A DNA stretch of 15,432 bases from Candidatus Thorarchaeota archaeon (GTDB lineage Archaea > Asgardarchaeota > Thorarchaeia > Thorarchaeales > Thorarchaeaceae). Position numbers and translations under genes: made by a program. This document shows positions 28-15,432 of the stretch, piece by piece (the first letter of the stretch is position 1; every line of letters starts with the position of its first letter). The notes below the pieces were generated by a model. The model was not told the DNA's origin. It made no database searches and saw only the letters and a program-made list of their open reading frames with translations. Location of the stretch: contig PRDH01000055.1 of assembly GCA_003345545.1 (NCBI GenBank), forward strand, positions 1 to 15,432. Reading direction: 5' to 3'.

Positions 28-3000
28 TTATGCTCTCGCATTCAGCTCCCTATCCACAATCTTGATCAGAACTTCAATCCGCTTGACTAGAGCTTGCTTT
101 AGCTTAAGTCCAGGGTCGGTAAGATCTTCCTCAAGTATGATTTCACCGAATGCCTTAACATATAGGTCATACGCATTTCGCAGCTCTTCTTTCACTGAGA
201 GGAGCACCTTTGTGTCCATTGCAGGAATTTGTTCTTGAAGTTCTCTCAGCCAATCAAGACTTGCGAGAATCTCCTCCCGTACCTTCACGGGGAGTTCTGC
301 CTCCTCCATGGACATCACTCGTTCAGGCCCTAGTGCTTTTTCAAGCGCTGCAACTCTCCGCCTTGTGCGCCTGACGTATAGTGCGCCTCCAACTCCGACT
401 AGTCCTATCACGCCAAATGTCGCGATGCCCATAGCAGTGCGCACAGGGAACCAATTGATGGTTGGATAGAGCCCTCGTTGATCCACTTGGGTCAACCCAT
501 ACGGGTCCATGATTTCCTCTATGATGTATTGCATAGTTCCAGCCCCCTGTGATGTTACATTGAGCTCCCATCTCTGTCTTTCTGCAACAAAGATTGCATT
601 TTGTCCATTGACAATCACAGTTGTGTTTGAATCTGAGAGGGCTGCACCATCTGACATGTAGTTCAGGTAGAAGTAGACTGTGACAGTCCACTCCAGCTCG
701 CATTGCAGTACCCGTCCTGCAGGTGAGTCTATTTCTGGGTCAAAAGCTGGAGCACTGCCCCACACTCCTGCGCGTGATACATAGATCAAATCCCAAGTGG
801 TTGTGCAGGTGAACTCAGTCCCCCCATCTATTACCTGTATGCCTCCAACCAGATCCAAATGTCCTGTGATACTGTAGCTATGAGTGCTGACCTCGCCTGA
901 GGTCACTGTGATATACCAGTAACTCTCTGTCGATAGAAATGTAGCCTTCACACCATTGATGTATATCTCTCCATCACTATCTGTGAACAGCGAACCGGTG
1001 TAGGATCTTCGAATACGGAACATAACATCAACTTCCTGACTAAGATCGGCGCGAGTCCGCTGAGATTCGCTCCAAAACACCTCGAGTTGATCCCAGATTA
1101 TATACTCGGCATCACTGTTGCTGATGAGAGAGACACCATGACCTACTGGGATGGCCAAGACGCACATGTATGCCCTACGACCCACAGTGCCATATTCGTA
1201 GGTCGTGTCGTTAAGCACCAGTGTTCCTATGTATGGCAATCCGTCGTAGTCAAAGGTTCCACTGACCAGGATGGAAGCATTGGTTCCTACGGTGATGTAG
1301 CGATTTCCAACTACCACTCTCACTGTGATTGAGTCCCAGGTGACGTAGATTCGTCCGCTCAACCGAATCTGTGTGATATTGTAGGTGTCTCCACTGGCTG
1401 AGGCACAAGTGTAGCCCTTTCTTCCAACAGAGTAAAGAATGTACACTGTGTCATTCAGAGTCAGCACTCCATCATACATCTTACCATCATAGTCATAGAG
1501 CGCATAGACTTGGATAGAGGCATTTCGACCGACATTGATATGCACACTGTTATTCAGGACATATACTCGAAGTGAGTCCCAAATGATGTATTCTTCATCA
1601 CTATATCCAATCACGGTTATGCCGTGAATTCCACCTGAGGCGACTGAAGCGGTGTATCCACGACGACCTACTGTGCCGTACTGATAGACTGTGTTATTCA
1701 GCGTGATGATTCCATCATAAGGAGTGCCATCGAAGGCATATATGGCTGAAATCCCTATTGTTGCGTTCTCCCCAACATTAATCCGGTTATCAGCAACGAT
1801 AAGCATTACCCTTAAGCAATCCCATATCATCGACGGTGACGTGACACGCTGATCGTATTGCGCTATCCCATTCACGTCGACTCCTGTGACACTCCAGATT
1901 AGACGAATGACACTTGCGCTTGACCAAGTGAGATCGATCCAGCCGCTGCCATTAATTGCATAGGGGGTCATATTGACGAAGAGAGACCCTTTAGTAACAG
2001 CGCTTCCATTTGTTGACCACTTGCAGTGGAAATAGACAGTCACATCAGTAACAATGTCTATTCTTCCATCTACATCACTTGCAAAGGCCATGTCAATAAC
2101 AACTACGGGACGCTCAGTCCACGTGACTATCAATAGATTAGCACTGAAGACTTGCAGTCCGTATTGATCATCTATCGCGCTGATCACGGTATAAATCCAG
2201 GTAGCATCAACTGGGCCATCCCACACATCAGAGAAATTGCCAACTACAAAGAACGATTCGTTTCTGTTCACCGAAGCTGTTAGTAGTTGAACTCGACCGC
2301 CATCGTAGTCCCTGGTGGCAATAAGTGTGAAGTTTACCAGTGAATGCCAATTGACAAGGAGCGCGTCGGCACTCAACACAACTTCAATCTTGTCCCAGAT
2401 TATAGAAACTGGAGCAGCCGGATATTCTACCGCTGTCAGTTCATGAAGGTCGTCAGTGACTCCTGATACTTGAAACTGCCATCGTCCGGTTACCATGTAC
2501 ACTCTATTCTGATACCAATGCATGAGCGACTGATTCCAAATCATGCTTGTACCGTTCAGATAGACTGTTCCGAGGGACCCAGTGAGAATTGTCGAGTCGT
2601 ATTCATATTCTACGGTTGCATAGATGGATTGAGTTGTTCCTACGTCGCAGTGTTCGTCTGAAACTGTATACGGCAACACGCGTAGTCGATCCCAAATTAC
2701 ATAGTCCTCATCATTGATAGATATCACATCAATGCCATAAGAATCGCCTGCAGCAGTCGCAATTGTGTACGACCATCGACCAACTTCATCATGAACGTAC
2801 GTCGTATCATTGAGAACAATGAATCCATCATAGATTGCTCCATCATAATCGTAGACAGCGGTCACATAGATTGAGGCGTTACCTCCGATATCGATTCTGT
2901 GGTCCTGAATTGTTAGGCTCACAGTCAAGGAGTCCCATATGATGTTCATCCATTGAGAGTTCTGGTCAACAGCAGTGATATGATATTCATTGTCTCCGCA

Positions 3001-6000
3001 CGAAACAGAATCAAAGAGTCTTCCCATAGCTGAGGACTCAGTCCGAACATGCTGCCAGATGCCCGCTTCAAGGTGAGTAAAGCTATAACCATTGACACTG
3101 ACTGCTCCGTCTGTTACTGGTGAGTCATCGAACTCATAGTGGAGTGTGACATTAATCCATGTGTACGACCCGATGTTGTTCCTAGAGTCACTTGAATCGT
3201 ATGCCATGACTTTTATTCTGTCCCATATGACGACTTGTGATTGAAGGTTTTGGTTCACGCTTGTTATTCCATATTGATTGTCGGTACAGACAACTAGGTC
3301 ATAAGTGTTGGATGTAACGATTGATTCTGAGGTGGCAATCCTCCAAATGCCAGATCCGTTGTACGTGGCTGGGACACCATTGATACTCACTGAACCATCT
3401 GAAACATCTGCATCATCATACTCGTACTCGAGATTGACATAAACATTGACGACATCGTTTAGATTTGCTCGACTGTCCGCAACAGAGTATCCCCTGACAG
3501 TTATCTGATCCCACGTCACGCTCTGTGACTGCCCGTTCTGACTGACCTGAGTAATACCAAGAGTGTTTCCTAATGCTGCCACATCATTATAGATACGACC
3601 TGTAACACTCGACTCGCTAGCGGTGATTTGCCAAATACCCAACCCTGCGTGGGTTGCTCCTATTGTATTCACTGTCACCATGCCATCTGTCACAGGTGCG
3701 CTGTCAAATTCATAGATTAGCGTCACTTCAATTGTCACAATGTCACCGATGTTGACTCGTGCATCCGCAACAGAATAGGACTCTACAAGAATTCTATCCC
3801 AGACCTGACCCAGAGACTGGCCGTTCTGATCAACTGAGCTAATTCCATATGTATTGCCTGAAGCAAGTACTGTGTCATAGGTGACCAATTGTACACCTGT
3901 CCTAACCTCGCTGAAGTCCCAGATTCCATTGGCGCCTGAGTAGACCGCAGCTACGCCATTTACCGAAACCGTTCCATCTGTCACGTATGAGCTGTCGTAA
4001 CTGAACTGCAACATGACATGACACGACGAGGCAGATCCTATGCTGATACGCTGGTCATCAGATGCATAGGAAAGCACAAGCACCTGGTCCCAAATACATT
4101 CAACGGACTGACCGTTGAGGTTGAGAGCGCTTATGCCATATGTGGTCTCCACCGAAGCATTGACAAAGTAGGTCCATTTACCAACAGAGGACCGGCTCCT
4201 TGCGAGTTCAAACCAAAAGCTACCAGGATCCCATGTCATAGGGGCACCATCTAGAGTGACACTATCGCCCGATCCCAGACTAGACTGGTCATACTCCAGC
4301 CATAATCTGACCCGTATCTCCACAGAACTCCCAACGCTCACTCTTCCATCGCTCACTGAGATTGCAGAGACCGCGACTCTATCCCAAATGATGTCGACGC
4401 TTCGTCCGTCAAGACTTAGCGCTGTTATCCCATAGACTGACTCAGCTGAGGCGTTGACATAGTATCTCCATCGCCCTACTGCTGACTGACTCCGGCTCAG
4501 TTCAAACCGCGAGTCTGCGGTATCCCACGTCATAGCTTGACCATCTAAGGTAACAGAGTCTCCAAGGCCGAGGAACGTATGGTCATACTCTAGCCAGAGG
4601 GTAACCCTTACCTCGACAGCTTGAGTAACACTCACCCTACTATCATCAACCACAGTGCTACGCACGACAATACGGTCCCAGACAATGAAGGCATCGGGAG
4701 CGGTCTGAATCCATGAGTTCAGTCCATATGTGCTATCGACTGCCAGCGCTATAGCGTACCCCACGCTCTTGACTGAACTCTGCACCTCAGTGTATATCCA
4801 ATGAGAACCGTTCCATGACAGAGCTTTAGAACCATTCAGTGATACAACCAGACCCGAAGAGATTGCCACGTCACCGTAGTCATAGCGTGCACTCCAGTAG
4901 ACACGACCCTGTGTATTGACATTGATCCTCGAGTCGTCTACTCCTGAGATATAGAACTCAATCCTGTCTGTGACAAATGTGTCCGTGCGTGAACTCGCGT
5001 AGTAGAGGTCCATACCACCAGCTCCTGCACCTTCTGACACGACCTTGAATGTGTAGAGGTTCAGTCTTACCAGGCTTGACGAGCCTATGTTAGTCACAGT
5101 GAATTGACCGCTTCCGTCAACATCAGTGGACCACGTTCCTGAAACGTCGTGTATCACCCACACATCGGTCTCATTGGCAAGAGGATGGAGGTTTGATGAA
5201 CCATAGTAGATGAGTGTGGAACTCGCCCACAAGTTCGAGGTTGAAATGTCACCCCGGTCATCCGAGAGAGATGGAGCCGTAGCGTAGTTGAGTCGTGTCT
5301 CAGTGTCCCAGTCGACCTCATAGAAGTCCTCGTCGCTATCTGAGCCATCTGTCACATACTGCCTCATGTCGATGTTCACTAGATCCGGATGGTCCCAATC
5401 GACCTTAATGACCCAAGTTATATCGAATCCAGTTGACCGACTTGATGCAGATGCCCAGCTTCCCAGGGCCACATACTCTGAGCCCTGTGCGATGGAGAAT
5501 GAACCGGTCAAGACAGCATAGCGAATGGTCCATACCAAGAGTGACCTTGTGTCATCGTATAGGGACAATTCAACGAAGTCGATGTCTGCAGACCCATCTA
5601 GGTCAGTCACGCTGGAGGTTACAGTATAGAACCGATACCGTGCATAGAGATTGTCAGTATCGTCTGCGTTCGTAATCTGTGGCGCCACGTCGTTTGTCGG
5701 GATCTCATTCGGTGCAATGGACCATGTGACCTGCAGAGTATTCGTGGTGAATGCAGTGATTCCATATAGCGACTCAGCCGTGATAGCAGTACTGGTGTAC
5801 TGATACGAAGTATCGGCATGAGTATCCACGAAGAGCGACGTGTTTGCATTTATGAACGACCTCCAGTGAGTTCCGTTCCTACTTATCATAACCTGATAGG
5901 TCGAGCATTGAGTAGAATCATAAGCGAACACAACAGTCAATGTGAAGTTCGCCTGGTGGTCATTGTAGGGTGTGCCATCGTCAACTCCGATGGTGACCAT

Positions 6001-9000
6001 CAGCCTATCGAATACACAATAGGTTTCAGCATTTGTACTAATGGCCGATATGCCATATATGCCTCCAGACGCGGACGCCACAGAATATCCATATCTGCCC
6101 ACAATTACGTGGTTGAATGTGGTATCATTCAACAAAAGGACACCATCGAATGTTGACGAATCGTAGTCATACATGGCGGATACTACTATCCCGGACGCAC
6201 TCGTGTTGATGTTGATCCGTTGATCTACGGGATTGCTGATGTAGATTGTCAGAGAGTCCCATATACAGAAAGTCACATCATTGGATGAGATCACAGTTAT
6301 TCCATATGCATCATTACCTAGAGCTGCACTGACAGTATAGTCTTTCCTCTGCGCAACACTGTATTGGAAGACGTTATTATTGAGTACTAGTGTGCCAGTG
6401 TATAGTGTGCCATCATAATCGTACGTGGCTGACACTGTAATTCCTGATGCATTCGTGTAGATGTTGATCCGCTGGTCACTTGGCCCCGTTATCAGGATGG
6501 TCAAGCTGTCCCAGATGCAATAGACCTCGTCGTTGGTACCGATTGCTGTAATTCCAAAAGCGTCATTTCCAGCAGCGGCGGAAACTGTGTAACCCTGCTT
6601 CTGAGCCGTAGCATACATGTACTGTGTGTTGTTAAGAGATAATGTCCCATCATATGTGGCGCCATCATAGTCATAGACTGCACTCACTTGGATAGTCGCA
6701 CTCGCACCGACATTGATTCTGTTATCAGCGATGGAGAGAGAGATGGCGAGAGAGTCCCAGATAATAGATGTTCCAAGACCCGGAGCGACCATATTCAGTC
6801 CATGGAAGGTGTCTGTTATTGAGGTCACAACAAACATGACTCGACTCATTATTGGTGAACTACGTTGCTGTTCCCACCGATAATCCACTGGATCCCAGGT
6901 CATGCTTGTCCCATTCAGATAGACAGTGCCTCTTGTGCCAGTGAATACAACATCGTCATACTCGTAGATCACCACTGCTGCTATGGTCTGGATGGATCCA
7001 ACGTTACACCGGGCATCACTGACCGAATAACTGGTCACCCGTAATCTGTCCCAAATGATAGACTCCACGTCGTTTGTCCCTATCACTGTGATATCATGTG
7101 AGTCTCCGGACGCAGAGATGACTGTATAGCTGTGCCGCCCAACGCTACTGAACAGGTAAGTTGTATCGTTCAGTACGAGTGTGCCATCGTAGGTCAGCTG
7201 ATCATAGTTATAGACAGCGCTGACATAGATGGAGGCATTCTGACCTATATTGATTCTGGAGTCTGAAACAGTGATTGTGATTGTCAAAGAGTCCCAGATG
7301 GCATACGTTTCGTCATTCGCGGCTATCGCAGTTATACCATGAGTGCCGCCTCCCGCTGACTGGACCTCGTACCCCCTCCGCCCGAATGTAGAGCGCTGGA
7401 AAACAGTATCATTCAGAATCAGGGACCCGTCGTAAGCACTACCATCGAAGTCGTATACCGCTGTGACTACGATTCCACTGGCATTCTCATTGAGATTGAT
7501 TCTCTGGTCGACCGGGTCAGTGATTGATATTGTCAGAGAGTCCCAGATCTGTTGTAAGGATTGGGCATTCTGATTAGTGATAGATATCCCGTACAAGTTG
7601 CCTGAAACAGTAACTGTGTCATAGACTACTAGCTGAGCTGTGGCCCTCGTAGCTCCGAAGTTCCAGATTCCATTTGCTCCACTATATGCAGCTATGACTC
7701 CGTTGATAGTGGTTGAGCCATCCGTCACCGGGCTGGAGTCATACTCATAGCGAAGAGTCACATGGTCACTAGCCGCAGTGTTGATGTTGATTCGGTTATC
7801 ATCAGTGGAGTAGGACACGACAATCACTCTGTCCCAGATGATGGACTGCGTCTTGGCATTCTGGTTGACATTTGTGATGCCATATAGATTGCCTGAACAT
7901 GTGACCAAGTTGTATATGTTCTGGACAACTGAAGGCTCACTGTCGACAATCCTCCAGACTCCAGAAACCTGATGAACAGCGCTTACACCATTTATCGTAA
8001 CGGTTCCGTCTGTTACAGGGCTGTCATCATACTCGTACTCGATTGTGACATCGACGTTCACATTCTCGTTTACATTTGCACGGGCATCGCTGGCCGCATA
8101 CCCTCGCACAGCGATTTGGTCCCATATGACTTGCAGCGACTGGGAGTTCTGGTCAACGACCGTGATGCCTAATACGTTCCCTGTACATGCAACAGAATTG
8201 TAGGCATTCGCAGTCACAATAGATTCAGTATCAGTTATGCGCCACACTCCAGAGCCCTGATGTGTTGCTGAGATACCATTGACAGTAACAGATCCATCTA
8301 CAACGGGTGAATCATCGTACTCGTATTCGATAGTGACATCTACAAGCGCGTTGTCGTTGATATTGACCCTTGCATCGACAGCAGAATAGCTCCTAACAGT
8401 AATCTTGTCCCAAATAACTGTCAGTGATTTTCCATTCTGATCGACAACATCTACTCCATGCAATCCACCAATATGAGTGACCGTATTGTATACCACTGCA
8501 GTCACGACAGTTTCAGAATCAGAGAATCTCCAGACACCAGACCCCTGGTGAGTCGCTGCGAATCCGTTGACAGTCACTAGACCACTAGTGACTAGTGTGT
8601 TATCGTAGTCATAGTATAGAGTCACGTCTATGATTACAACGATATTGATGTTCACCCTTGTATCCGTAATCGTATATGATTGAACCTGGACTCGGTCTGC
8701 AACGTACGTGTCTTGGACTACGTTTTGAAGCAGATTCGTGTCACCTGAACTACCGCCTTCCTTGACCACAGTTACAGTGTATGTGTCTATCCCGACTCCG
8801 TCATCTGCGTAGCAAGTCACGCTAAAGGCTCCTGATTCCAACTCCTGGTCTGACCAGGGCCCTATATTGGTTCCATACTCGGATGATGAAACCCAAATGT
8901 CTGTTTCATTGGACAGAGGATTCAACAATGATCCGAAATACGATATGACCCCTGATATGGTGAAGCTTCCATCGAGAGAGCCTCTGTCGTTAGTACCAGA

Positions 9001-12000
9001 ATCGTCGTCCAAAGTGAGTCCAGTGGTTACTACCCGAGTTTCGACGTCCCAGTTCTCTTCATAGAAGTCCTGATCGAAATTGGTCCCGTCATTCACATAC
9101 TGTAGGACATCGACATCTACCAAATCTGCATGGTCCCAATCTATCTTGATTTGCCATGATACACTGATGCTGCTTCCAAAGACAGAAACCGACGACCATG
9201 TCGCGAGTTCGACGTAGTCTGAACCGAACTCGACAGTGAAGGTGTCACCAGAAACCGTGTACCTGACGACCCACACAACCTCCGTACGTGCGTCATTGTA
9301 GAGCGTCAGCTCAATGTAGTCGATATCCCAACCACCATCACCATCGCTGACATTTGATATAATGGTGTAGAACTTATACCGTGCATACATGTTGTCTGTG
9401 TCATCTGCATTCAACAACTCTGGGGCGGAATCGTTTGTTGGAGCCTTGTTTGGTTCTGCAGACCATGACACCCACTGGGCGCTGGTTGTGAAAGCTGTGA
9501 TTCCATATAGGGTTTCAAGGTTCACACCAGAAACGATGTATTCATAGATTACCTCACTATTCCTATCGACAAACAGGCTCCTATTCGAATACGTGAATGT
9601 GTGCCAATGGGTCGCGTTGCGGGCCACTCTGACTTCGTATGATGTGCAGGCTATTCCATCAGACTCAAAAGTGATGGTCAGAGTGAAGTTCACTTGGATG
9701 TCGTTGTAGGGACTTGATGAGTCTGCAGATATGATGATGTGGAGACGATCCCAGATGCAATAGGTCTCGTCGTTCAGCGAGATGGCTGAGATACCATAGA
9801 GATCATTGCCTGCAGCATTTGCCACCCTGTATCCTCTACGGCCTGCAGTAGAATGCTGGAAGATTGTGTCATTCAGATTCAGTGTTCCCGTGTATTGAGT
9901 AGAGTCGTAATCATAGATTGCTGTGACGATGATGCCTGACGCATTCTGGTTGATGCTAATCCTTTGGTCAACTGGGTCCGTGATGGTTATTGTTAGAGAG
10001 TCCCAGATGCAATACGTGGCATCATTTGTGCTAATCACGGTGATCCCATAGGAGTCGTCACCTATAGCTGTCGCGACTCTATAGCCTTGCTTCTGTGCAG
10101 TAGGATACATGAACATCGTATTGTTGAGAGTAAGAGTCCCATCATAACTCGAACCATCGTAGTCATAGATAGCTGATACCACGATGCCAGACGCATTGGT
10201 GTTGATGTTGATCCGCTGGTCAGTCGGCCCTGCTATCAGAATGGTCAGGCTATCCCAGATGCATGACTCAATATCATTGGTGCCAATCACTGTGATGTCA
10301 TAGATGAAATCGCCTGCGGCACTCGATACGGTGTACCACTGTATCTGCGCAGTTGGATAGCTGAACTGAGTGTTGTTGAGAGTCAGGGACCCCTCGTAGC
10401 TAGTCCCATCATAGGCATAAGTGGCACTTGCCTGAACGGAGGCAACTTGATTGATGTTTATTCGATTGTCCACAATTGCGATACTGATAGTCAGCGCATC
10501 CCATATGATGGCGGGGCGGGCTGTAGTCTGAAAGACACTAATGCCATGATATGTGTCAGTGATTGCCGACACACCGAACACGAGGCGTCCCACCACGGAG
10601 GAGGTTCTCTCCTGGCTCCATCGATATGCAACTCCATCCCAGACCATTGCGGAACCATTGAGGTACACCGTCCCTCTTGCACCCGAGAAGAGGGTGGAGT
10701 CATACTCGTACACTACTATCGCTGTAACATTCTGAATAGAACCTACATCACACCGAGAATCAGTGACTGAATAACTGATCACTCTCAGCTGGTCCCATAT
10801 CTGGCTCGCACTCTGCCCGTTCTGGTTGACGGAGGTTATTCCATGGGTGTTTCCAGATGCTACAACACTGTTGTATGTAAAGAGCTGAACTGCTCCTCTT
10901 GCCTCAGCAAAGTCCCAGATACCGTTTGAACCTGAATACGTTGCGACTACGCCGTTTACAGTAATTGCCCCATCCGCTACGTATGTGCTATCATAGGTGT
11001 ATTGAAGAGCCACATGACCGGAACATGCTGTGCCAACATTGATGCGGGTATCGTCCGAATAGAGCGCAATCACAATTATCCGATCCCAGATGATGGTCGT
11101 GGACTTCGAACTCTGGTCAACAACAGTAATTCCTAAAGTATTCCCGGATACTGCAACATTGTTGTAGGTGTTATCTCCCACAGATACCTCGGAGTCGGTG
11201 ATTCTCCAGATGCCGGACCCTTGATTCGCGGCAAGGATTCCGTTGATGGTCACTGTGCCATCAATCAGCGGTGAGTTATCAAAGTCATAATAGAGTGTCA
11301 CATCAACGGTCACACTATCGCCGACATTGACACGGGAATCCGATACAAGATAGGACTGGACCTGAACCCTGTCCCATATGATTATGATAGCTTGCGCATT
11401 CTGATTCACGGAAGTGATTCCATGAGTGTTCCCAGATACTGTCACAGAATCATAGGTCTCCGAGGTGACAGCGGCTTGAATCCTAGTTGCAGACCACTGA
11501 CCACTAGAGCCCGTGTAGGTGAATGTAACGCCATCTACTACGACTATACCATTGATCACATCAGAGTCGTCATACTCGTATTCGAGCACAACGTAGACTA
11601 TGATTGAGTCCCCTACATTATCACGGGTATCCGATGCAGAATAGCTCCTCACGGTCACTTGGTCCCATATGACCTCCTGCATCTGTCCATTCTGGTTCAC
11701 ATTCGTTATGCCATATGAATTGCCAGAGCACACCACTGCGTTGTATACGTTGGAAATCACAATGATCTCTGTGTCTGTTACTCGCCAGACACCAGATCCT
11801 ATGTGGCTTGCACTCAATCCATTTATCGCGACTGCACCATCAGTCACGGGACTGTCATCGTACTCGTATTCCAGCGCTACGTCGACGTTGACACCGGTGC
11901 CCAGATTCACTCTGCTGTCTGCAACCGAATAGCCTCTCACGGCCACTTGGTCCCACACAACAAGCTGGGTCTGCCCGTTCTGGTACACAGCAGTGATCCC

Positions 12001-15000
12001 TTGGCCGTTCCCTGCGCAACTAACGGAGTTGTATGTGCTTCCAGTCACAGAGGCCTCTGCAACTGTTATTCGCCATATGCCAAGTCCCTGATAGGTGGCG
12101 GAGACACCGTTCACGCTCACAGAACCATCCATAAGGTCAGTGCTGTCGTATTCGTATTCCAGTTCAACGTCAATGTTGACTATGTCATTCAAGTTGACTC
12201 TCGCATCGACGACAGTGAATCCTCTCACGATGATGCGATCCCAGACGACCTGTTGCGACTGGCTGTTCTGATCTACAACAGAGATACCGTTAGAATTGCC
12301 TGACACCATTACCAAGTTGTAGGTGTTCGACACAACTGATGACTCAGAATCGACAGCTCTCCAGACCCCCAACCCTTGATATGTGGCTGCCAGACCGTTG
12401 ATGGCCACACTTCCATCAGTCACAAATGAGTCATCATAGTCGTAGCGCAAGATCACGTCAATGTTTACGTTATTACCCACGTTGACGCGAGAGTCCGTCA
12501 CAGTATATGACTGCACTTGCACCCTGTCCCAGATCTGGCCGAGACTCCGCCCATTCTGGTCAGCCGTATCTATGCCATACGTATTACCTGACACTAGAAC
12601 ACTGTCGTATGTAAAGAGCTGGACTGCTACCTTAATCTCACTGAAGTCCCACACTCCACTCGAACCTGAATAGGTCGCACCAACACCATTGACAGTCACA
12701 GTGCCATCAACCACTATTGCTTCGTCATAGTCATAATGTAGGATGACATGGCACGAACTGGATGCGCCCACATTGATACGTGAGTCATCTGAGGAATATG
12801 AAACGACCACGACTTGATCCCATATACACCAGGTCTGGTCGTTGACGCGTATGACTGTGATCCCATAGGCGTCATTACCAGCTGCACTCGCGGCTGCGTA
12901 CCCCTGTCTGCCCACGACAGCATAGGTGAATACTGTATTGTTGAGGGTGAGTGTGCCATCATAGGGAGTGGAGTCGTAGTCATAGAGAGCTGTGACGACG
13001 ATTCCAGATGCGTTTTCACCTATGTTTATGCGCTGGTCTGTGGGATTGGTTATTGTAACCGTAAGGCTGTCCCAGATGCACCAAGTGACATCGAATGATG
13101 AGATTGCAGTGATAGCATAAGCATCATCTCCGTTCACAGATGTGACATAGTACGCCTGTTTCTGCGCTGTGGCATACTGAAACACTGTGTTATTCAAGTT
13201 GAATGATCCTTCATAGATTGCGGAATCGTAGTCGTACGTGATGACAATCACGATACCAGACGCATTGCTGTTGACGTTGATTCGCTGGTCTGAAGGGTCG
13301 GTTATCGAGATGCTCAGACTGTCCCAGATGACTAATTGAGTCTGAGAATTCTGATTGACGGAGGTTATTCCATGGACGTTTCCACTGCAGACAACGCTGC
13401 CGTAGGCGACTCCTTGGGCGGGACTACGCGATTGTGTTATTCTCCAGACTCCCGCTCCCTGATGTGAAGCTATGAATCCATTGATTGCTACAGTTCCAGT
13501 TGTAACATCAGAATCATCATATTCGAACTCAAGGGTGACGTAGATGTATACATCGGTGTTAATATCCACCCTGTCATCAATAACCGAATAGCCCCTGACA
13601 ACAATCTCATCCCAGATGACACTCTGAGACAGACCATTCTGGTCAACCTGACTTATCCCATAGAGGTTCGCGGAGCATGCCACAGTGTCATAGGTGACTG
13701 ATTGTGCCGTGAGCCTGTTCTCAACTATCGTCCAGACTCCTGACCCGAGATGACCTGCACTAATATCGTTGATAGTGACTGCTCCATCAGTGACAGGAGA
13801 ATTGTCGTAATCGTACACCAGAGTGACATCGATGTTGACATCATCGTTGATATTCGCGTGTGCGTCGTCAACAACATAGGATTGCACTTGCACTCTGTCC
13901 CAGATCTGGTCCAGTGTCATCCCATTCTGATTGACAGAGGTTATTCCGTGTATGTTGCCCGAAGCCACAACACTGTTGTAGGTCAACAGCTGGACTGCTA
14001 GTCTGACCTCACCAAAGTTCCAGACTCCGTTTGAACCTGAATATGTTGCACTGATACCATTGACGGTGACGGCCCCATCGACGACAAAGGATCCATCGTA
14101 TTCATACTCTAGAGTGACATGGAGGGTGCTTGGGGTGCCTACATTGATCCGTGAGTCATCAGTGGAGTATGAAACGACGACGACTTGGTCCCAGATACAC
14201 CACGTCAAATCGTTCTGGCGTATGGCTGCAATGCCATAGGGATCATCACCGACCGCACTGGCTACTGTGTATCCCCTTCGACCTACTGTTGAATACTGGA
14301 AGATCGTGTCATTCAGATTGAGTGTGCCATCATAGGGTGTGAAGTCATAGTCGTACATCGCGATGACAACTATTCCTGACGCGTTGGTGTTGATATTCAC
14401 TCTTTGGTCCAAAGGATCACTGATGGCGATTGTCAGGGAGTCCCAAATACAATATGTCTCATCGTTCAACCTGATAGCACTAATTCCATACGTTCCGCCT
14501 GATGCAGACAGAACTCTATAACCCTGCTTCTGAGCAATAGCATAATTGAAGACCGTGTTGTTGAGGGTGAGTGTGCCATCAAAGGGAGTGGAGTCATAAT
14601 CATATACCGCTGTGACAATGATTCCTGTTGCATTCTCATTTATGTTGATTCTCTGATCTGGTGGCCCAGATATGGTGATCGTCAGGCTATCCCAGACGAC
14701 CTGTTGTGACTGTCCGTTTTGGTTGACCAAGCTTATCCCATTAGTGTTTCCGCTACATGCTATGCTGCTGTATGTAACACCTTGTGCGACGCTCCTTGAT
14801 TGCACCAACCTCCAGACTCCCGCACCTTGGTGAGTGGCCAGGAGGGTGTTGATTAGTACCGTACCATCTATAATTGGTGCGCTGTCATACGCATACGCGA
14901 GAGTCACATCTACATTTACGCTGGTGCCGATATTCACCCGAGTGTCGGCTACCACGTATCCTTGTACTACAACCTGGTCCCAAATCACAAGCTGCGTCTG

Positions 15001-15432
15001 ACTGTTCTGGTCAACGGCTGCTATTCCATAGGAGTTCCCGGACACTGCAACTGTATCATAGGTGTTTCCCACCACAGACAGCTCGCTGACGGATATCCTC
15101 CAGATGCCTGATCCCCGATTGGTTGCCACTATCGAGTCTATTGTGACTATGCCATCAGTCACTTGAGAATTGTCGTAGTCATAATAGAGTGTGACATCAA
15201 CATTCACCGAATCGCCAACGTTTACTCGGGAGTCCGTCACAGTATATGACTGCACTTGCACTCTGTCCCAGATTTGGGACTGTGTCTGACCGTTCTGATT
15301 GACGACACTGATTCCGTGTTGATTTCCTGAAGTGACCACATTATCATATGTGAGCATCTGTACACTCACGCGGGTCTCACCGAAGTTCCAGATGCCACTA
15401 GCTCCAGAGTAGGTGGCACTTAGTCCATTGAC
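28..15432 (-). CDS. Giant repetitive membrane-anchored cell-surface protein (adhesin/filament-like), 5'-partial, at least 5134 aa
   Basis: Single uninterrupted frame ending in TAA at 28-30. Upstream of the tracked GTG at 15369 the frame continues to the edge as VNGLSATYSGASGIWNFGETR, which is the middle of a class-B repeat, so the true start lies outside the window. Tandem beta-rich modules are followed by a C-terminal hydrophobic helix, basic cluster and cytoplasmic tail. Confidence 0.96.
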   Translation of the reverse strand, partial: VNGLSATYSGASGIWNFGETRVSVQMLTYDNVVTSGNQHGISVVNQNGQTQSQIWDRVQVQSYTVTDSRVNVGDSVNVDVTLYYDYDNSQVTDGIVTIDSIVATNRGSGIWRISVSELSVVGNTYDTVAVSGNSYGIAAVDQNSQTQLVIWDQVVVQGYVVADTRVNIGTSVNVDVTLAYAYDSAPIIDGTVLINTLLATHQGAGVWRLVQSRSVAQGVTYSSIACSGNTNGISLVNQNGQSQQVVWDSLTITISGPPDQRININENATGIIVTAVYDYDSTPFDGTLTLNNTVFNYAIAQKQGYRVLSASGGTYGISAIRLNDETYCIWDSLTIAISDPLDQRVNINTNASGIVVIAMYDYDFTPYDGTLNLNDTIFQYSTVGRRGYTVASAVGDDPYGIAAIRQNDLTWCIWDQVVVVSYSTDDSRINVGTPSTLHVTLEYEYDGSFVVDGAVTVNGISATYSGSNGVWNFGEVRLAVQLLTYNSVVASGNIHGITSVNQNGMTLDQIWDRVQVQSYVVDDAHANINDDVNIDVTLVYDYDNSPVTDGAVTINDISAGHLGSGVWTIVENRLTAQSVTYDTVACSANLYGISQVDQNGLSQSVIWDEIVVRGYSVIDDRVDINTDVYIYVTLEFEYDDSDVTTGTVAINGFIASHQGAGVWRITQSRSPAQGVAYGSVVCSGNVHGITSVNQNSQTQLVIWDSLSISITDPSDQRINVNSNASGIVIVITYDYDSAIYEGSFNLNNTVFQYATAQKQAYYVTSVNGDDAYAITAISSFDVTWCIWDSLTVTITNPTDQRINIGENASGIVVTALYDYDSTPYDGTLTLNNTVFTYAVVGRQGYAAASAAGNDAYGITVIRVNDQTWCIWDQVVVVSYSSDDSRINVGASSSCHVILHYDYDEAIVVDGTVTVNGVGATYSGSSGVWDFSEIKVAVQLFTYDSVLVSGNTYGIDTADQNGRSLGQIWDRVQVQSYTVTDSRVNVGNNVNIDVILRYDYDDSFVTDGSVAINGLAATYQGLGVWRAVDSESSVVSNTYNLVMVSGNSNGISVVDQNSQSQQVVWDRIIVRGFTVVDARVNLNDIVNIDVELEYEYDSTDLMDGSVSVNGVSATYQGLGIWRITVAEASVTGSTYNSVSCAGNGQGITAVYQNGQTQLVVWDQVAVRGYSVADSRVNLGTGVNVDVALEYEYDDSPVTDGAVAINGLSASHIGSGVWRVTDTEIIVISNVYNAVVCSGNSYGITNVNQNGQMQEVIWDQVTVRSYSASDTRDNVGDSIIVYVVLEYEYDDSDVINGIVVVDGVTFTYTGSSGQWSATRIQAAVTSETYDSVTVSGNTHGITSVNQNAQAIIIIWDRVQVQSYLVSDSRVNVGDSVTVDVTLYYDFDNSPLIDGTVTINGILAANQGSGIWRITDSEVSVGDNTYNNVAVSGNTLGITVVDQSSKSTTIIWDRIIVIALYSDDTRINVGTACSGHVALQYTYDSTYVADGAITVNGVVATYSGSNGIWDFAEARGAVQLFTYNSVVASGNTHGITSVNQNGQSASQIWDQLRVISYSVTDSRCDVGSIQNVTAIVVYEYDSTLFSGARGTVYLNGSAMVWDGVAYRWSQERTSSVVGRLVFGVSAITDTYHGISVFQTTARPAIIWDALTISIAIVDNRININQVASVQASATYAYDGTSYEGSLTLNNTQFSYPTAQIQWYTVSSAAGDFIYDITVIGTNDIESCIWDSLTILIAGPTDQRININTNASGIVVSAIYDYDGSSYDGTLTLNNTMFMYPTAQKQGYRVATAIGDDSYGITVISTNDATYCIWDSLTITITDPVDQRISINQNASGIIVTAIYDYDSTQYTGTLNLNDTIFQHSTAGRRGYRVANAAGNDLYGISAISLNDETYCIWDRLHIIISADSSSPYNDIQVNFTLTITFESDGIACTSYEVRVARNATHWHTFTYSNRSLFVDRNSEVIYEYIVSGVNLETLYGITAFTTSAQWVSWSAEPNKAPTNDSAPELLNADDTDNMYARYKFYTIISNVSDGDGGWDIDYIELTLYNDARTEVVWVVRYTVSGDTFTVEFGSDYVELATWSSVSVFGSSISVSWQIKIDWDHADLVDVDVLQYVNDGTNFDQDFYEENWDVETRVVTTGLTLDDDSGTNDRGSLDGSFTISGVISYFGSLLNPLSNETDIWVSSSEYGTNIGPWSDQELESGAFSVTCYADDGVGIDTYTVTVVKEGGSSGDTNLLQNVVQDTYVADRVQVQSYTITDTRVNINIVVIIDVTLYYDYDNTLVTSGLVTVNGFAATHQGSGVWRFSDSETVVTAVVYNTVTHIGGLHGVDVVDQNGKSLTVIWDKITVRSYSAVDARVNINDNALVDVTIEYEYDDSPVVDGSVTVNGISATHQGSGVWRITDTESIVTANAYNSVACTGNVLGITVVDQNSQSLQVIWDQIAVRGYAASDARANVNENVNVDVTIEYEYDDSPVTDGTVTINGVSAVHQVSGVWRIVDSEPSVVQNIYNLVTCSGNLYGITNVNQNAKTQSIIWDRVIVVSYSTDDNRININTAASDHVTLRYEYDSSPVTDGSTTINGVIAAYSGANGIWNFGATRATAQLVVYDTVTVSGNLYGISITNQNAQSLQQIWDSLTISITDPVDQRINLNENASGIVVTAVYDFDGSAYDGSLILNDTVFQRSTFGRRGYEVQSAGGGTHGITAIAANDETYAIWDSLTITITVSDSRINIGQNASIYVSAVYNYDQLTYDGTLVLNDTTYLFSSVGRHSYTVISASGDSHDITVIGTNDVESIIWDRLRVTSYSVSDARCNVGSIQTIAAVVIYEYDDVVFTGTRGTVYLNGTSMTWDPVDYRWEQQRSSPIMSRVMFVVTSITDTFHGLNMVAPGLGTSIIWDSLAISLSIADNRINVGASATIQVSAVYDYDGATYDGTLSLNNTQYMYATAQKQGYTVSAAAGNDAFGITAIGTNDEVYCIWDSLTILITGPSDQRINIYTNASGITVSATYDYDGTLYTGTLVLNNNVFQYSVAQRKDYTVSAALGNDAYGITVISSNDVTFCIWDSLTIYISNPVDQRININTSASGIVVSAMYDYDSSTFDGVLLLNDTTFNHVIVGRYGYSVASASGGIYGISAISTNAETYCVFDRLMVTIGVDDGTPYNDHQANFTLTVVFAYDSTQCSTYQVMISRNGTHWRSFINANTSLFVDTHADTSYQYTSTAITAESLYGITAFTTNTLQVTWSIAPNEIPTNDVAPQITNADDTDNLYARYRFYTVTSSVTDLDGSADIDFVELSLYDDTRSLLVWTIRYAVLTGSFSIAQGSEYVALGSWASASSRSTGFDITWVIKVDWDHPDLVNIDMRQYVTDGSDSDEDFYEVDWDTETRLNYATAPSLSDDRGDISTSNLWASSTLIYYGSSNLHPLANETDVWVIHDVSGTWSTDVDGSGQFTVTNIGSSSLVRLNLYTFKVVSEGAGAGGMDLYYASSRTDTFVTDRIEFYISGVDDSRINVNTQGRVYWSARYDYGDVAISSGLVVSLNGSKALSWNGSHWIYTEVQSSVKSVGYAIALAVDSTYGLNSWIQTAPDAFIVWDRIVVRSTVVDDSRVSVTQAVEVRVTLWLEYDHTFLGLGDSVTLDGQAMTWDTADSRFELSRSQSAVGRWRYYVNASAESVYGITALSLDGRSVDIIWDRVAVSAISVSDGRVSVGSSVEIRVRLWLEYDQSSLGSGDSVTLDGAPMTWDPGSFWFELARSRSSVGKWTYFVNASVETTYGISALNLNGQSVECIWDQVLVLSYASDDQRISIGSASSCHVMLQFSYDSSYVTDGTVSVNGVAAVYSGANGIWDFSEVRTGVQLVTYDTVLASGNTYGISSVDQNGQSLGQVWDRILVESYSVADARVNIGDIVTIEVTLIYEFDSAPVTDGMVTVNTIGATHAGLGIWQITASESSVTGRIYNDVAALGNTLGITQVSQNGQSQSVTWDQITVRGYSVADSRANLNDVVNVYVNLEYEYDDADVSDGSVSINGVPATYNGSGIWRIATSESIVTSNTYDLVVCTDNQYGITSVNQNLQSQVVIWDRIKVMAYDSSDSRNNIGSYTWINVTLHYEFDDSPVTDGAVSVNGYSFTHLEAGIWQHVRTESSAMGRLFDSVSCGDNEYHITAVDQNSQWMNIIWDSLTVSLTIQDHRIDIGGNASIYVTAVYDYDGAIYDGFIVLNDTTYVHDEVGRWSYTIATAAGDSYGIDVISINDEDYVIWDRLRVLPYTVSDEHCDVGTTQSIYATVEYEYDSTILTGSLGTVYLNGTSMIWNQSLMHWYQNRVYMVTGRWQFQVSGVTDDLHELTAVEYPAAPVSIIWDKIEVVLSADALLVNWHSLVNFTLIATRDYDGGRVQLLTASVNRNESFFVVGNFSDVWDGPVDATWIYTVISAIDDQYGLQVFSANLLIVTWTERPVVVIDMAFASDVDGRIDIVTDVTVYFHCKWSTNGSAVTKGSLFVNMTPYAINGSGWIDLTWSSASVIRLIWSVTGVDVNGIAQYDQRVTSPSMIWDCLRVMLIVADNRINVGENATIGISAIYAFDGTPYDGIITLNNTVYQYGTVGRRGYTASVASGGIHGITVIGYSDEEYIIWDSLRVYVLNNSVHINVGRNASIQVYALYDYDGKMYDGVLTLNDTVYILYSVGRKGYTCASASGDTYNITQIRLSGRIYVTWDSITVRVVVGNRYITVGTNASILVSGTFDYDGLPYIGTLVLNDTTYEYGTVGRRAYMCVLAIPVGHGVSLISNSDAEYIIWDQLEVFWSESQRTRADLSQEVDVMFRIRRSYTGSLFTDSDGEIYINGVKATFLSTESYWYITVTSGEVSTHSYSITGHLDLVGGIQVIDGGTEFTCTTTWDLIYVSRAGVWGSAPAFDPEIDSPAGRVLQCELEWTVTVYFYLNYMSDGAALSDSNTTVIVNGQNAIFVAERQRWELNVTSQGAGTMQYIIEEIMDPYGLTQVDQRGLYPTINWFPVRTAMGIATFGVIGLVGVGGALYVRRTRRRVAALEKALGPERVMSMEEAELPVKVREEILASLDWLRELQEQIPAMDTKVLLSVKEELRNAYDLYVKAFGEIILEEDLTDPGLKLKQALVKRIEVLIKIVDRELNARA
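31..372 (-). other. 114-aa cytoplasmic alpha-helical tail
   Basis: Abrupt switch to E/K/L/R-rich amphipathic sequence broken by Pro/Gly residues (VREEILASLDWLRELQEQIP; VLLSVKEELRNAYDLYVKAFG; LKLKQALVKRIEVLIKIVDRELNARA). Confidence 0.8.
373..438 (-). other. Single C-terminal transmembrane helix
   Basis: TAMGIATFGVIGLVGVGGALYV (22 uncharged residues) immediately followed by RRTRRR (355-372), consistent with the positive-inside rule. Confidence 0.9.
1096..1824 (-). repeat. Three tandem 81-aa class-C' modules near the membrane
   Basis: WD junctions at 1824, 1581, 1338, 1095, exactly 243 nt apart. Motif VG.NA[ST]I......[FY]DG..Y.G...LN[ND]T.Y.....GR..Y. Confidence 0.88.
4093..4971 (-). repeat. 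Class-H modules (one divergent + two closely related, 97-98 aa)
   Basis: Two adjacent copies share RVSV...VE.RV.LWLEYD...LG.GDSVTLDG..MTWD....FEL.RS.S.VG.W.Y.VNAS.E..YGI.AL.L.G.SV (4680-4387 and 4386-4093). Confidence 0.85.
4972..7053 (-). repeat. Seven-module cassette D-C'-C-C-E-F-G, copy 2
   Basis: Module lengths 98, 82, 84, 83, 96, 138, 113 aa, offset 3741-3744 nt from copy 1, same motif order. Confidence 0.9.
5311..5724 (-). other. Class-F module copy 2, 138 aa, cadherin-like/Ig-like with putative Ca2+-binding acidic motifs
   Basis: PNEIPTNDVAP, NADDTDN, DLDGSADID (5578-5604), VDWDHPD. Confidence 0.5.
8701..10797 (-). repeat. Seven-module cassette D-C'-C-C-E-F-G, copy 1
   Basis: Module lengths 98, 82, 84, 84, 96, 138, 117 aa. 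Unique motifs GTVYLNG, PYND.Q.NFTLT, RN.THW, NADDTDN.YARY and WD.ETR are shared with copy 2. Confidence 0.9.
9052..9465 (-). other. Class-F module copy 1, 138 aa, cadherin-like/Ig-like with putative Ca2+-binding acidic motifs
   Basis: PNKAPTNDSAP, NADDTDN, DGDGGWDID (9319-9345), IDWDHAD. The N-x-x-P start and DxDG loop resemble prokaryotic cadherin-like domains (inference). Confidence 0.5.
12532..15432 (-). repeat. Higher-order repeat B-A-A-C-C, period 1368-1371 nt (456-457 aa)
   Basis: WDRVQVQSY junctions at 15270, 13902, 12531; WDQVVVVSYS junctions at 14193, 12822; C-C pairs at 14694-14194 and 13326-12823. Confidence 0.9.

What the first reader, a model, noticed from the sequence alone, without database searches (positions are those of the whole stretch)
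454..15432. Linker-less 'IWD' module filament over 5100 aa built from an alphabet of about 8 module classes
Seen: 53 modules with tightly fixed class lengths (A 96, B 97, C 83-84, C' 81-82, D 98-99, E 92-96, F 138, G 113-117, H 97-98 aa). Most have no flexible linkers; the final strand of one module runs straight through [IV]WD into the first strand of the next. The ectodomain is visibly Lys-poor and rich in Asp/Val/Thr/Ser/Tyr. I cannot assign the repeat to a named family. Inference: a stiff rod of Ig-like domains. At roughly 3.5-4 nm per Ig domain it would span on the order of 200 nm for the visible part alone, so it could be a single-chain appendage for cell-cell or syntrophic contact.
Basis: partly seen in the sequence, partly recalled or inferred. 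Interest (0 to 1): 0.75.

Follow-up and report, generated by a model that had tools for sequence, protein, structure and literature searches.

The report
Giant Asgard Ig-like surface rod
The window holds the last 5,134 codons of a 6,612-codon gene of a Thorarchaeota (Asgard) archaeon that encodes a membrane-anchored, sugar-coated rod of about 60 linker-less Ig-like domains with a lectin-like tip; the repeat family has no proper name, but this kind of protein is already reported in Asgard archaea.

Summary
One minus-strand frame (stop at 28-30) fills the window. On its contig it starts at a GTG with a GGAGG site and encodes 6,612 aa.

- **Modules.** The window part has 53 modules. Their lengths are 81-84, 96-99, 138 and 113-116 aa, and most end in [IV]WD.
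- **Composition.** Lys is 0.45% of the ectodomain against 4.8% in the proteome.
- **One family.** All 81-100 aa classes align as one family. The short class lacks a 13-aa hairpin.
- **Structure.** A three-module AlphaFold model (pLDDT 96, pTM 0.82) is an extended Ig-like tandem. The last strand of each module continues into the next. It is closest to FdeC, invasin and intimin rods.
- **Pfam.** It gives only a partial, phase-shifted DUF7738 match.
- **Range.** The family has 908 cluster representatives and is almost confined to one Asgard family.
- **Layout.** Signal peptide, tandem CBM/lectin-like jelly rolls, three rod segments separated by a conserved ~350-aa three-domain block (~445 aa between [IV]WD motifs), one TM helix and a 114-aa helical tail.
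- **Partner.** In relatives a TPR gene lies directly beside the tail's end of the gene at all 15 loci where a tail match and a strong partner match fall on one contig (convergent in 14). Here the contig ends first.

Best reading: an adhesin-like surface fibre about 200-300 nm long (inferred).

The scan met this family before on other genomes, and a 2025 preprint describes comparable Asgard giants. This is a new member of a known kind.

The parts
28..15432 (-). C-terminal 5,134 codons plus stop of the giant gene. The full gene is C55:28-19866, 6,612 aa.
   Evidence: A near-identical full-length database protein, P0002, has 12 mismatches in 5,134 aa.
31..372 (-). Cytoplasmic tail, 114 aa, Glu/Leu/Arg/Lys-rich and probably helical. 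Conserved motifs: RV.LE.AL.PE, LEWLR.L, MY..AFE.
   Evidence: The tail is shared by 11 of 58 giant homologues and found in 19 of 81 family genomes.
373..438 (-). Single transmembrane helix followed by RRTRRR (positive-inside rule, so N-terminus out and C-terminus in).
   Evidence: Sequence.
439..1089 (-). Two divergent membrane-proximal modules (100 aa and about 106 aa) and a short stalk.
   Evidence: Each is a singleton class in the clustering. They are conserved only in the homologues that share this tail.
1090..4962 (-). Rod segment 3: 15 modules of 81-99 aa and one 191-aa double module (17 domains).
4963..6006 (-). Insert 2: an IWD-like module without the motif (97 aa), a 138-aa domain and a 113-aa domain.
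   Evidence: The same block recurs in 57 of 58 homologues. A 442-450 aa spacing occurs 89 times in the family. No Pfam or PDB sequence match.
6007..8694 (-). Rod segment 2: 10 modules.
8695..9747 (-). Insert 1: the same three-domain block (97 + 138 + 116 aa).
9748..15432 (-). Rod segment 1: 21 modules, the first cut by the window end, including two 97-96-96-84-84 super-repeats.
   Evidence: The three-module model of P0001 residues 57-331 (window 14440-15264) is.

Best explanation
The gene encodes a type-I membrane-anchored, probably N-glycosylated surface fibre of a Thorarchaeota (Asgard) archaeon.

From the N-terminus, which lies outside and far from the cell, to the C-terminus:
- A Sec-type signal peptide.
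- An acidic, probably disordered stretch.
- Two CBM/lectin-like jelly-roll domains that form the tip.
- About 58 Ig-like 'IWD' modules joined strand to strand without linkers.
- A conserved three-domain block that interrupts the rod twice; its two non-IWD domains also follow the head.
- One TM helix.
- A 114-aa helical cytoplasmic tail.

I infer that the rod holds the lectin-like tip some 200-300 nm from the membrane, where it binds a glycan or a surface on a partner cell or substrate. That makes it an adhesin. I also infer that the tail ties the fibre to a cytoplasmic TPR protein encoded next to it in relatives.

Shown here: the sequence architecture, the module family, its taxonomic range, and the tail-TPR gene linkage in relatives. 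Predicted: the folds and the rigid extended junctions. Inferred: the length, glycosylation, ligand binding and tail-partner contact.
For: **Gene and topology**
- Full ORF with a GGAGG site 9 nt before the GTG start and a signal-like N-terminus.
- TM helix followed by RRTRRR.

**Modules**
- All 81-100 aa classes align as one family. Nearly invariant positions are D31, G38, N43, Y69, W95 and D96.
- AF2 three-module model: pLDDT 96.4, pTM 0.82, strands continuous across both junctions.
- Foldseek and VIA-align put it beside FdeC (Z 9.9, 243 residues aligned), InvE, invasin, intimin, InvD, SiiE, MpIBP and titin tandems.

**Head**
- AF2 model: pLDDT 89.
- Its first jelly roll matches CBM6/35/36, fucolectin, the Eph ligand-binding domain and Cry domain III at Z 9-11.
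- The pair of domains matches reelin repeats, tandem CBM22 and GH101/GH85 accessory domains.

**Surface chemistry**
- 82 sequons, 1.27 per 100 aa against 0.49 in the proteome.
- Lys 0.45%. D+E 746 against K+R 238.
- Lys poverty holds across the family, median 1.2%.

**Family**
- 59 giant homologues; every one that carries a name is called Asgard.
- 908 cluster representatives in 1.84 billion proteins.
- 47 of 76 genomes of the same family have it. Elsewhere in the phylum sample matches are weak, apart from one genome at E 2.5e-15.
- It is a single copy in this genome.

**Tail and partner**
- At all 15 loci where a tail match and a strong partner match (E <= 1e-60) lie on one contig, the TPR gene sits within about 30-290 nt of the tail's end. 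It is convergent in 14 of them. The loci span four genera (also L002 and L003).
- Two further strong partner matches have no tail match in their genome; one of them lies at a contig end.
- The partner's nearest Atlas clusters are Asgard TPR_12 proteins, score 0.95.
Against: - No experiment exists for any member. There is no expression or localisation evidence here.
- Folds and rigidity come from AlphaFold only. The module alignment was built from the protein's own repeats, so the inter-domain geometry rests on few covarying rows.
- The CBM-like fold of the head does not show sugar binding. Z of 9-11 is common for jelly rolls.
- The TPR partner is absent from this assembly (92.9% complete; the contig ends 27 nt after the stop). 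The linkage is therefore shown only in relatives.
- A convergent arrangement is not an operon.
Confidence: 0.72

Rival explanations
1. It is a structural coat or spacer rather than an adhesin. Many copies would form a brush-like glycocalyx or canopy that replaces an S-layer and keeps other cells, viruses or particles at a distance. The tip would have no specific ligand.
For: - The ectodomain is highly acidic, Lys-poor and rich in sequons.
- The rod is extremely long and rigid in the model.
- Foldseek also lists S-layer proteins among its weaker matches: SbsB and EA1, E about 1e-4.
Against: - It is a single-copy gene.
- Its length varies strongly between close relatives: 6,612 aa here, and a 4,666-aa frame in the same genus with a tail 92% identical.
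- The tip is a conserved lectin-like domain pair.
- No lattice-forming domain was recognised.
- 29 of the 76 family genomes sampled gave no match, although many of these assemblies are incomplete.
Confidence: 0.15
2. It is mainly a receptor. Binding or mechanical load at the tip would be passed through the single TM helix to the conserved tail and its TPR partner, giving integrin-like outside-in coupling to the Asgard cytoplasmic machinery.
For: - The tail is conserved from residue to residue across genera.
- The TPR gene is adjacent at 15 of 15 loci.
- The family carries at least two other tail types on the same kind of rod, which suggests exchangeable cytoplasmic connections.
- Small stand-alone TM-plus-tail ORFs of 140-145 aa exist in relatives.
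Against:
- The partner has no recognised enzymatic or signalling domain, only TPR.
- A 200-nm rigid rod anchored by one TM helix is not an obvious signal transmitter. The tail may simply anchor or sort the protein.
Confidence: 0.1
3. It is cargo of a mobile element, like the 'aloposon' giant genes (Otus/Ephialtes) of Heimdallarchaeum, which have distant relatives in Thorarchaeota.
For: - Wu et al. [quoted passage not shown]
- The gene's presence within the family is patchy.
Against: - The gene is not in tandem with another giant gene.
- Neither the tRNA site nor the MinD/ParA-type ATPase described for aloposons is among the neighbours identified on the contig. Those are DUF3795, an MFS transporter and a carotenoid-synthesis protein plus small ORFs. 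No tRNA scan was run.
- GC content is even across the gene and close to the genome's 48%.
- The architecture is that of a secreted, anchored surface protein.
Confidence: 0.03

Closest known systems
Asgard adhesin-like giant membrane proteins, for example the 5,416-aa LOKIASV2_19760 of Nerearchaeum marumarumayae (bioRxiv 10.1101/2025.07.22.663070)
   Same: - An Asgard host.
- An N-terminal signal peptide and a membrane-spanning anchor.
- More than 50 tandem Ig/fibronectin-like domains.
- A proposed reach of about 250 nm.
   Different: - That protein is described as fibronectin-like and comes from a Loki-type lineage.
- The IWD module profile gives only weak matches outside the Thor family sampled, apart from one genome at E 2.5e-15. 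Sequence kinship is therefore unlikely, but I did not test it directly.
- The passages I read mention no conserved tail or partner gene.
Inverse-autotransporter rods of Enterobacteria: invasin, intimin, FdeC, InvD/InvE (Big_1 domains)
   Same: - They are the best structural matches to the three-module model: Z 8.4-9.9, with up to 243 of 275 residues aligned across all three domains.
- Ig-like domains are joined without linkers into a rod.
- A lectin-like domain sits at the tip in invasin and intimin (own knowledge).
   Different: - No sequence similarity: 7-14% identity and no Big_1 Pfam hit.
- They are bacterial and anchored by an outer-membrane beta-barrel at the N-terminus.
- They have 4-50 domains.
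- They have no cytoplasmic tail.
Giant repeat adhesins SiiE (Salmonella) and MpIBP / RTX adhesins
   Same: - Dozens of BIg-type beta-sandwich repeats form a 100-600 nm fibre.
- They appear among the Foldseek matches, E about 1e-5.
- They are acidic and Asp-rich.
   Different: - Those rods are stiffened by Ca2+ at the domain junctions and are secreted by a type 1 system (own knowledge).
- Ca2+ binding could not be tested here.
- Their DNA repeats are often near-identical. Here the best module pair is 72% identical in DNA and the median is 58%.
Pfam DUF7738 (PF24880)
   Same: - It is the only Pfam family that reaches its whole-protein cut-off on this protein: 57.3 bits on the window's first half, 74.9 on the run of short modules, and 33.5 on a 456-aa stretch of five modules (one 97-96-96-83-84 unit), against a cut-off of 24.6.
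- It is precomputed on several homologues.
   Different: - Only profile positions 40-100 of 103 align.
- The match straddles the [IV]WD junction plus the first ~55 residues of the short modules.
- Single modules score nothing.
- No paper in the library mentions the family.

Membership tests
Pfam DUF7738 (PF24880) | Whole-protein score above the gathering cut-off of 24.6 bits. | tested here: met
   57.3 bits (window residues 1-2500), 74.9 bits (run of short modules), 33.5 bits (a 456-aa stretch of five modules, one 97-96-96-83-84 unit).
Pfam DUF7738 (PF24880) | The profile matches over its full length as one domain per module. | tested here: not met
   Only positions 40-100 of 103 align, across a module boundary. 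Nine single modules gave no hit at E <= 10.
Bacterial Ig-like domains Big_1 / invasin-intimin type | A sequence match to the Pfam models. | tested here: not met
   No Big_*, Cadherin, PKD or fn3 family at E <= 1 on either half or on single modules. The module profile against PDB sequences gave only chance hits, E 0.28.
Bacterial Ig-like domains Big_1 / invasin-intimin type | An Ig-like beta-sandwich fold in a head-to-tail rod. | tested here: met
   AF2 model with pLDDT 96.4. FdeC Z 9.9, InvE 9.4, invasin 9.2, intimin 8.4-8.8. This shows resemblance of fold only.
Asgard adhesin-like giant membrane proteins (Nerearchaeum preprint) | A signal peptide, many tandem Ig/FN-like domains and a membrane-spanning segment, in an Asgard genome. 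| tested here: met
   Homologues are named Thorarchaeota, Sifarchaeia, Hermodarchaeota and Promethearchaeota.
Ca2+-rigidified RTX/BIg adhesins (SiiE, MpIBP) | Ca2+ sites at the domain junctions, and type 1 secretion with a C-terminal RTX signal. | not testable with these tools
   Conserved Asp residues exist at and near the junction, but no coordinates or ion modelling were available. The C-terminus is a TM helix plus tail, not an RTX signal.
Carbohydrate-binding module / galactose-binding-like jelly roll (head) | A beta-jelly-roll fold. | tested here: met
   Model residues 4-153 match CBM35, CBM36, CBM6, fucolectin and Cry domain III at Z 9-11, rmsd about 3 A over 115-135 residues.
Carbohydrate-binding module / galactose-binding-like jelly roll (head) | A sequence match to a CBM or lectin family, or a conserved sugar-binding site. 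| tested here: inconclusive
   No Pfam family at E <= 0.1 on the first 576 residues. Binding residues were not examined.

The most novel reading that the evidence does not exclude
The rod, its conserved helical tail and the convergently encoded TPR protein form an Asgard-specific surface-to-cytoplasm coupling device, integrin-like in logic. Interchangeable tail types on the same rod family would plug it into different cytoplasmic adaptors. That would give these relatives of eukaryotes a way to anchor or sense contacts made 200-300 nm from the cell.
Probability: 0.2. Interest if true: 0.75.

Novelty: new member of a known kind. Interest (0 to 1): 0.4.

Why it matters
[quoted passage not shown] How they touch partners is largely unknown.

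This is one of the longest members of an unnamed, Thorarchaeota-centred Ig-like repeat family; only one of the 59 giant homologues found is longer (7,254 aa). It gives several handles for experiment:
- A clean module definition for a new Pfam-type family.
- A confident structural model of a linker-less rod.
- A lectin-like tip that can be tested for ligands.
- A tail-partner pair that can be tested for binding.

It does not overturn anything. Giant Ig-rod adhesins are familiar, and comparable Asgard giants are already in print.

Tried and rejected
- **Gene context of the complete copy.** Fetching the 76-kb contig that carries the full-length copy failed. I recovered the downstream neighbour from relatives instead.
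- **Partner in this genome.** The TPR partner was sought in the own genome and not found. The contig ends 27 nt after the stop, so this says nothing about absence.
- **Pfam and NCBIfam.** Searches on halves, single modules, inserts, head and tail gave only DUF7738 and chance hits such as Lum_binding, TDH and PuhB.
- **PDB by sequence.** The module profile and the insert gave nothing.
- **ESM Atlas on the insert.** Recognition was below threshold. It gave only leads to archaeal Big_3_5 and CarboxypepD_reg proteins, which I did not use as evidence.
- **Disulfide or isopeptide stabilisation.** Considered and set aside. There is at most one conserved Cys per module and almost no Lys.
- **Recent repeat expansion or assembly artefact.** Rejected. 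DNA identity between modules is at most 72%, and an independent database copy has the same length.
- **Plus-strand ORFs inside the gene**. Treated as shadows of the giant frame.

Full report
**1. What is in the window**

One open frame on the minus strand runs from the window's last base to a TAA/TAG/TGA stop at 28-30, giving 5,134 aa. The window is the first 15,432 bases of a 23,765-base contig, C55.

On that contig the frame continues to a GTG at 19866, preceded by GGAGG at a spacing of 9 nt. That gives 6,612 aa.

Two in-frame stretches read N: residues 569-703 and 1333-1478. A database protein of exactly 6,612 aa fills them (P0002). It differs from the window part at 12 of 5,134 positions. 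The gene is therefore real, intact and independently assembled.

**2.

Cutting after each [IV]WD gives 45 boundaries in the window. Module lengths are 81-84, 96-100, 191, 444 and 447 aa.

The 444/447-aa blocks resolve into a 97-aa IWD-like module, a 138-aa domain, a 113-116-aa domain and a 96-aa module. The 191-aa block resolves into two modules.

Clustering gives 10-13 classes at 35-45% identity. All 81-100 aa classes align as one family. Nearly invariant positions are D31, G38, N43, Y69, W95 and D96. The short class is the long one minus a 13-residue hairpin.

Composition:
- Lys is 0.45% of the ectodomain against 4.81% in a crude proteome.
- Asp, Asn, Thr, Tyr, Trp, Ser and Val are enriched 1.4- to 2.1-fold.
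- D+E is 746 against K+R 238.
- There are 82 N-x-S/T sequons, 1.27 per 100 aa against 0.49.

The regularity is a property of the family. In 57 homologues, 80% of 1,306 spacings fall in 79-101 aa (all but one at 81-84 or 96-101), peaking at 96, 98, 83 and 84. A second peak at 442-450 aa (89 cases) marks the insert. Lys poverty is also family-wide, median 1.2%.

**3. Structure of the modules**

I built an alignment for a three-module fragment (P0001 57-331) from the protein's own repeats (A1).

AlphaFold2 gave mean pLDDT 96.4 and pTM 0.82. The model is all-beta. Strand 91-96, which ends in IWD, is followed after one residue by strand 98-105. The same holds at 187-192 and 194-199.

- Foldseek lists titin Ig81-83, SiiE, InvD, FdeC, MpIBP and C3-type MG domains at E about 1e-5.
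- VIA-align ranks FdeC first (Z 9.9, 243 residues aligned over all three domains). InvE, invasin, intimin, InvD and titin I9-I11 follow.

The model is thus an extended Ig-like tandem without linkers. This is a prediction; the inter-domain geometry was not measured.

**4. Named families**

Pfam gives only DUF7738:
- It scores 57.3, 74.9 and 33.5 bits on runs of modules, against a cut-off of 24.6.
- Only profile positions 40-100 of 103 align, across the junction and the first ~55 residues of short modules.
- Single modules score nothing.
- No paper in the library mentions DUF7738.

NCBIfam and the PDB sequence search give nothing.

**5. Rest of the protein**

Residues 1-24 form a Sec-type signal: RRR, then a hydrophobic core, then SMHA|E. 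An acidic, low-complexity stretch follows.

Residues 90-345 were modelled with 23 homologous fragments (A3). The result has pLDDT 89 and pTM 0.67, and shows two beta jelly rolls.
- The first jelly roll matches CBM35/36/6, a fucolectin, Eph ligand-binding domains and Cry toxin domain III at Z 9-11.
- The pair of domains matches reelin repeats, tandem CBM22, and the GH101 and GH85 accessory domains.

This head occurs at the N-terminus of 43 of 58 giant homologues. The 138-aa plus ~115-aa domain pair occurs in 57 of 58. In this protein that pair appears three times: once after the head and twice inside the rod.

The C-terminus has two divergent modules, a TM helix (window 373-438), RRTRRR and a 114-aa Glu/Leu/Arg/Lys-rich tail.

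**6. Tail and neighbour**

The tail is shared by 11 of the 58 giants. It is strongly conserved, with motifs RV.LE.AL.PE, LEWLR.L, MY..AFE and LK..L..RI. Other family members end in long acidic tails with different terminal modules.

In two relatives the gene behind the tail is a convergent 490-494-aa protein with weak TPR hits. Its nearest Atlas clusters are Asgard TPR_12 proteins, score 0.95.

Across 81 genomes of the family, the tail was found in 19. At all 15 loci where a tail match and a strong partner match (E <= 1e-60) lie on one contig, the partner sits within about 30-290 nt of the tail's end. It is convergent in 14 of them. The loci span four genera. Two further strong partner matches have no tail match in their genome; one of them lies at a contig end.

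In this genome the contig ends 27 nt after the stop, and the partner is not in the assembly (completeness 92.9%). The physical link is inferred, not tested.

**7. Range**

- The module profile finds 908 cluster representatives (664 at E <= 1e-10) among 1.84 billion proteins. Nearly all of the 150 best listed carry four or more copies.
- In 301 genomes of the phylum it hits 59, of which 47 of 76 are in the same family. Outside that family there are only weak single hits, apart from one genome at E 2.5e-15.
- Every homologue that carries a name is called Asgard: Thor-, Sif-, Hermod- or Promethearchaeota.
- This genome has one such gene.
- A same-genus genome has a tail 92% identical at the end of a 4,666-aa frame, so module number changes quickly.
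- The modules themselves are old. Their DNA identity is at most 72%, median 58%.

**8. Reading**

A type-I anchored, glycosylated, acidic rod of about 66 domains carries a lectin-like tip. At 3.3-4.6 nm per domain it would reach roughly 220-300 nm. The lower figure is from my own knowledge of SiiE. The upper is implied by the Nerearchaeum preprint.

An adhesin-like fibre is the best-supported function. A passive coat, a receptor role and mobile-element cargo are rivals.

**9. Novelty**

- A 2025 preprint describes a 5,416-aa Asgard adhesin-like protein with 54 fibronectin-like domains reaching about 250 nm.
- Wu et al. 2022 catalogue giant Asgard proteins.
- A 2024 survey counts three proteins of at least 5,000 aa in Thorarchaeota.
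- Earlier notes of this scan had already met the same 'IWD' family, and the tail-adaptor idea, on other genomes. I re-tested gene adjacency independently and it holds.

The family itself is unnamed and undescribed in the papers I could search. The kind is known, so this is a new member of a known kind.

Noticed in passing
C55:15433-15870 and C55:17758-18162 (outside the window; L001:433-870 and 2758-3162): Two in-frame runs of N lie inside the gene (residues 1333-1478 and 569-703). P0002 has the same total length, so they are masked bases, not assembly gaps.
   Followed up: yes
L004 (CAYOSZ010000431.1, 2,555 bp): A contig binned as 'uncultured Ignavibacteria bacterium' carries a tail region 80% identical to this Thorarchaeota protein. 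It is probably a mis-binned archaeal contig.
   Followed up: no
G266:C28:1183-1581, G305:C135:21-419, G152:C62:13539-13931: Relatives hold small open frames of 140-145 aa that match tail residues 14-146 only. They look like stand-alone TM-plus-tail proteins without any rod.
   Followed up: no
P0006, P0025, P0009, P0013 (C-termini); P0010, P0016, P0024: The same rod and head family ends in at least two other tail types: long Glu/Pro-rich leashes that end in a conserved 'LTK.ELL..IP..I..TT.P.EL.RLTK.ELISLIES' module. Tails seem exchangeable.
   Followed up: partly
L002:10897-15846 (minus strand): Next to the TPR partner in a same-genus relative lies a 1,649-aa protein with BNR_4 and DUF2341 domains, another large surface-type protein.
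   Followed up: no
L001:4919-5987 (C55:19919-20987), minus strand: Three small ORFs (100, 123 and 116 aa) lie directly upstream of the giant gene on the same strand. Two have hydrophobic segments. They have no family, and their conservation was not checked.
   Followed up: no
window 9748-15264: Modules are old duplicates. The best DNA identity between any two same-length modules is 72%, and the two 97-96-96-84-84 super-repeats are 61% identical. This is unlike the near-identical repeats of many bacterial adhesins.
   Followed up: yes
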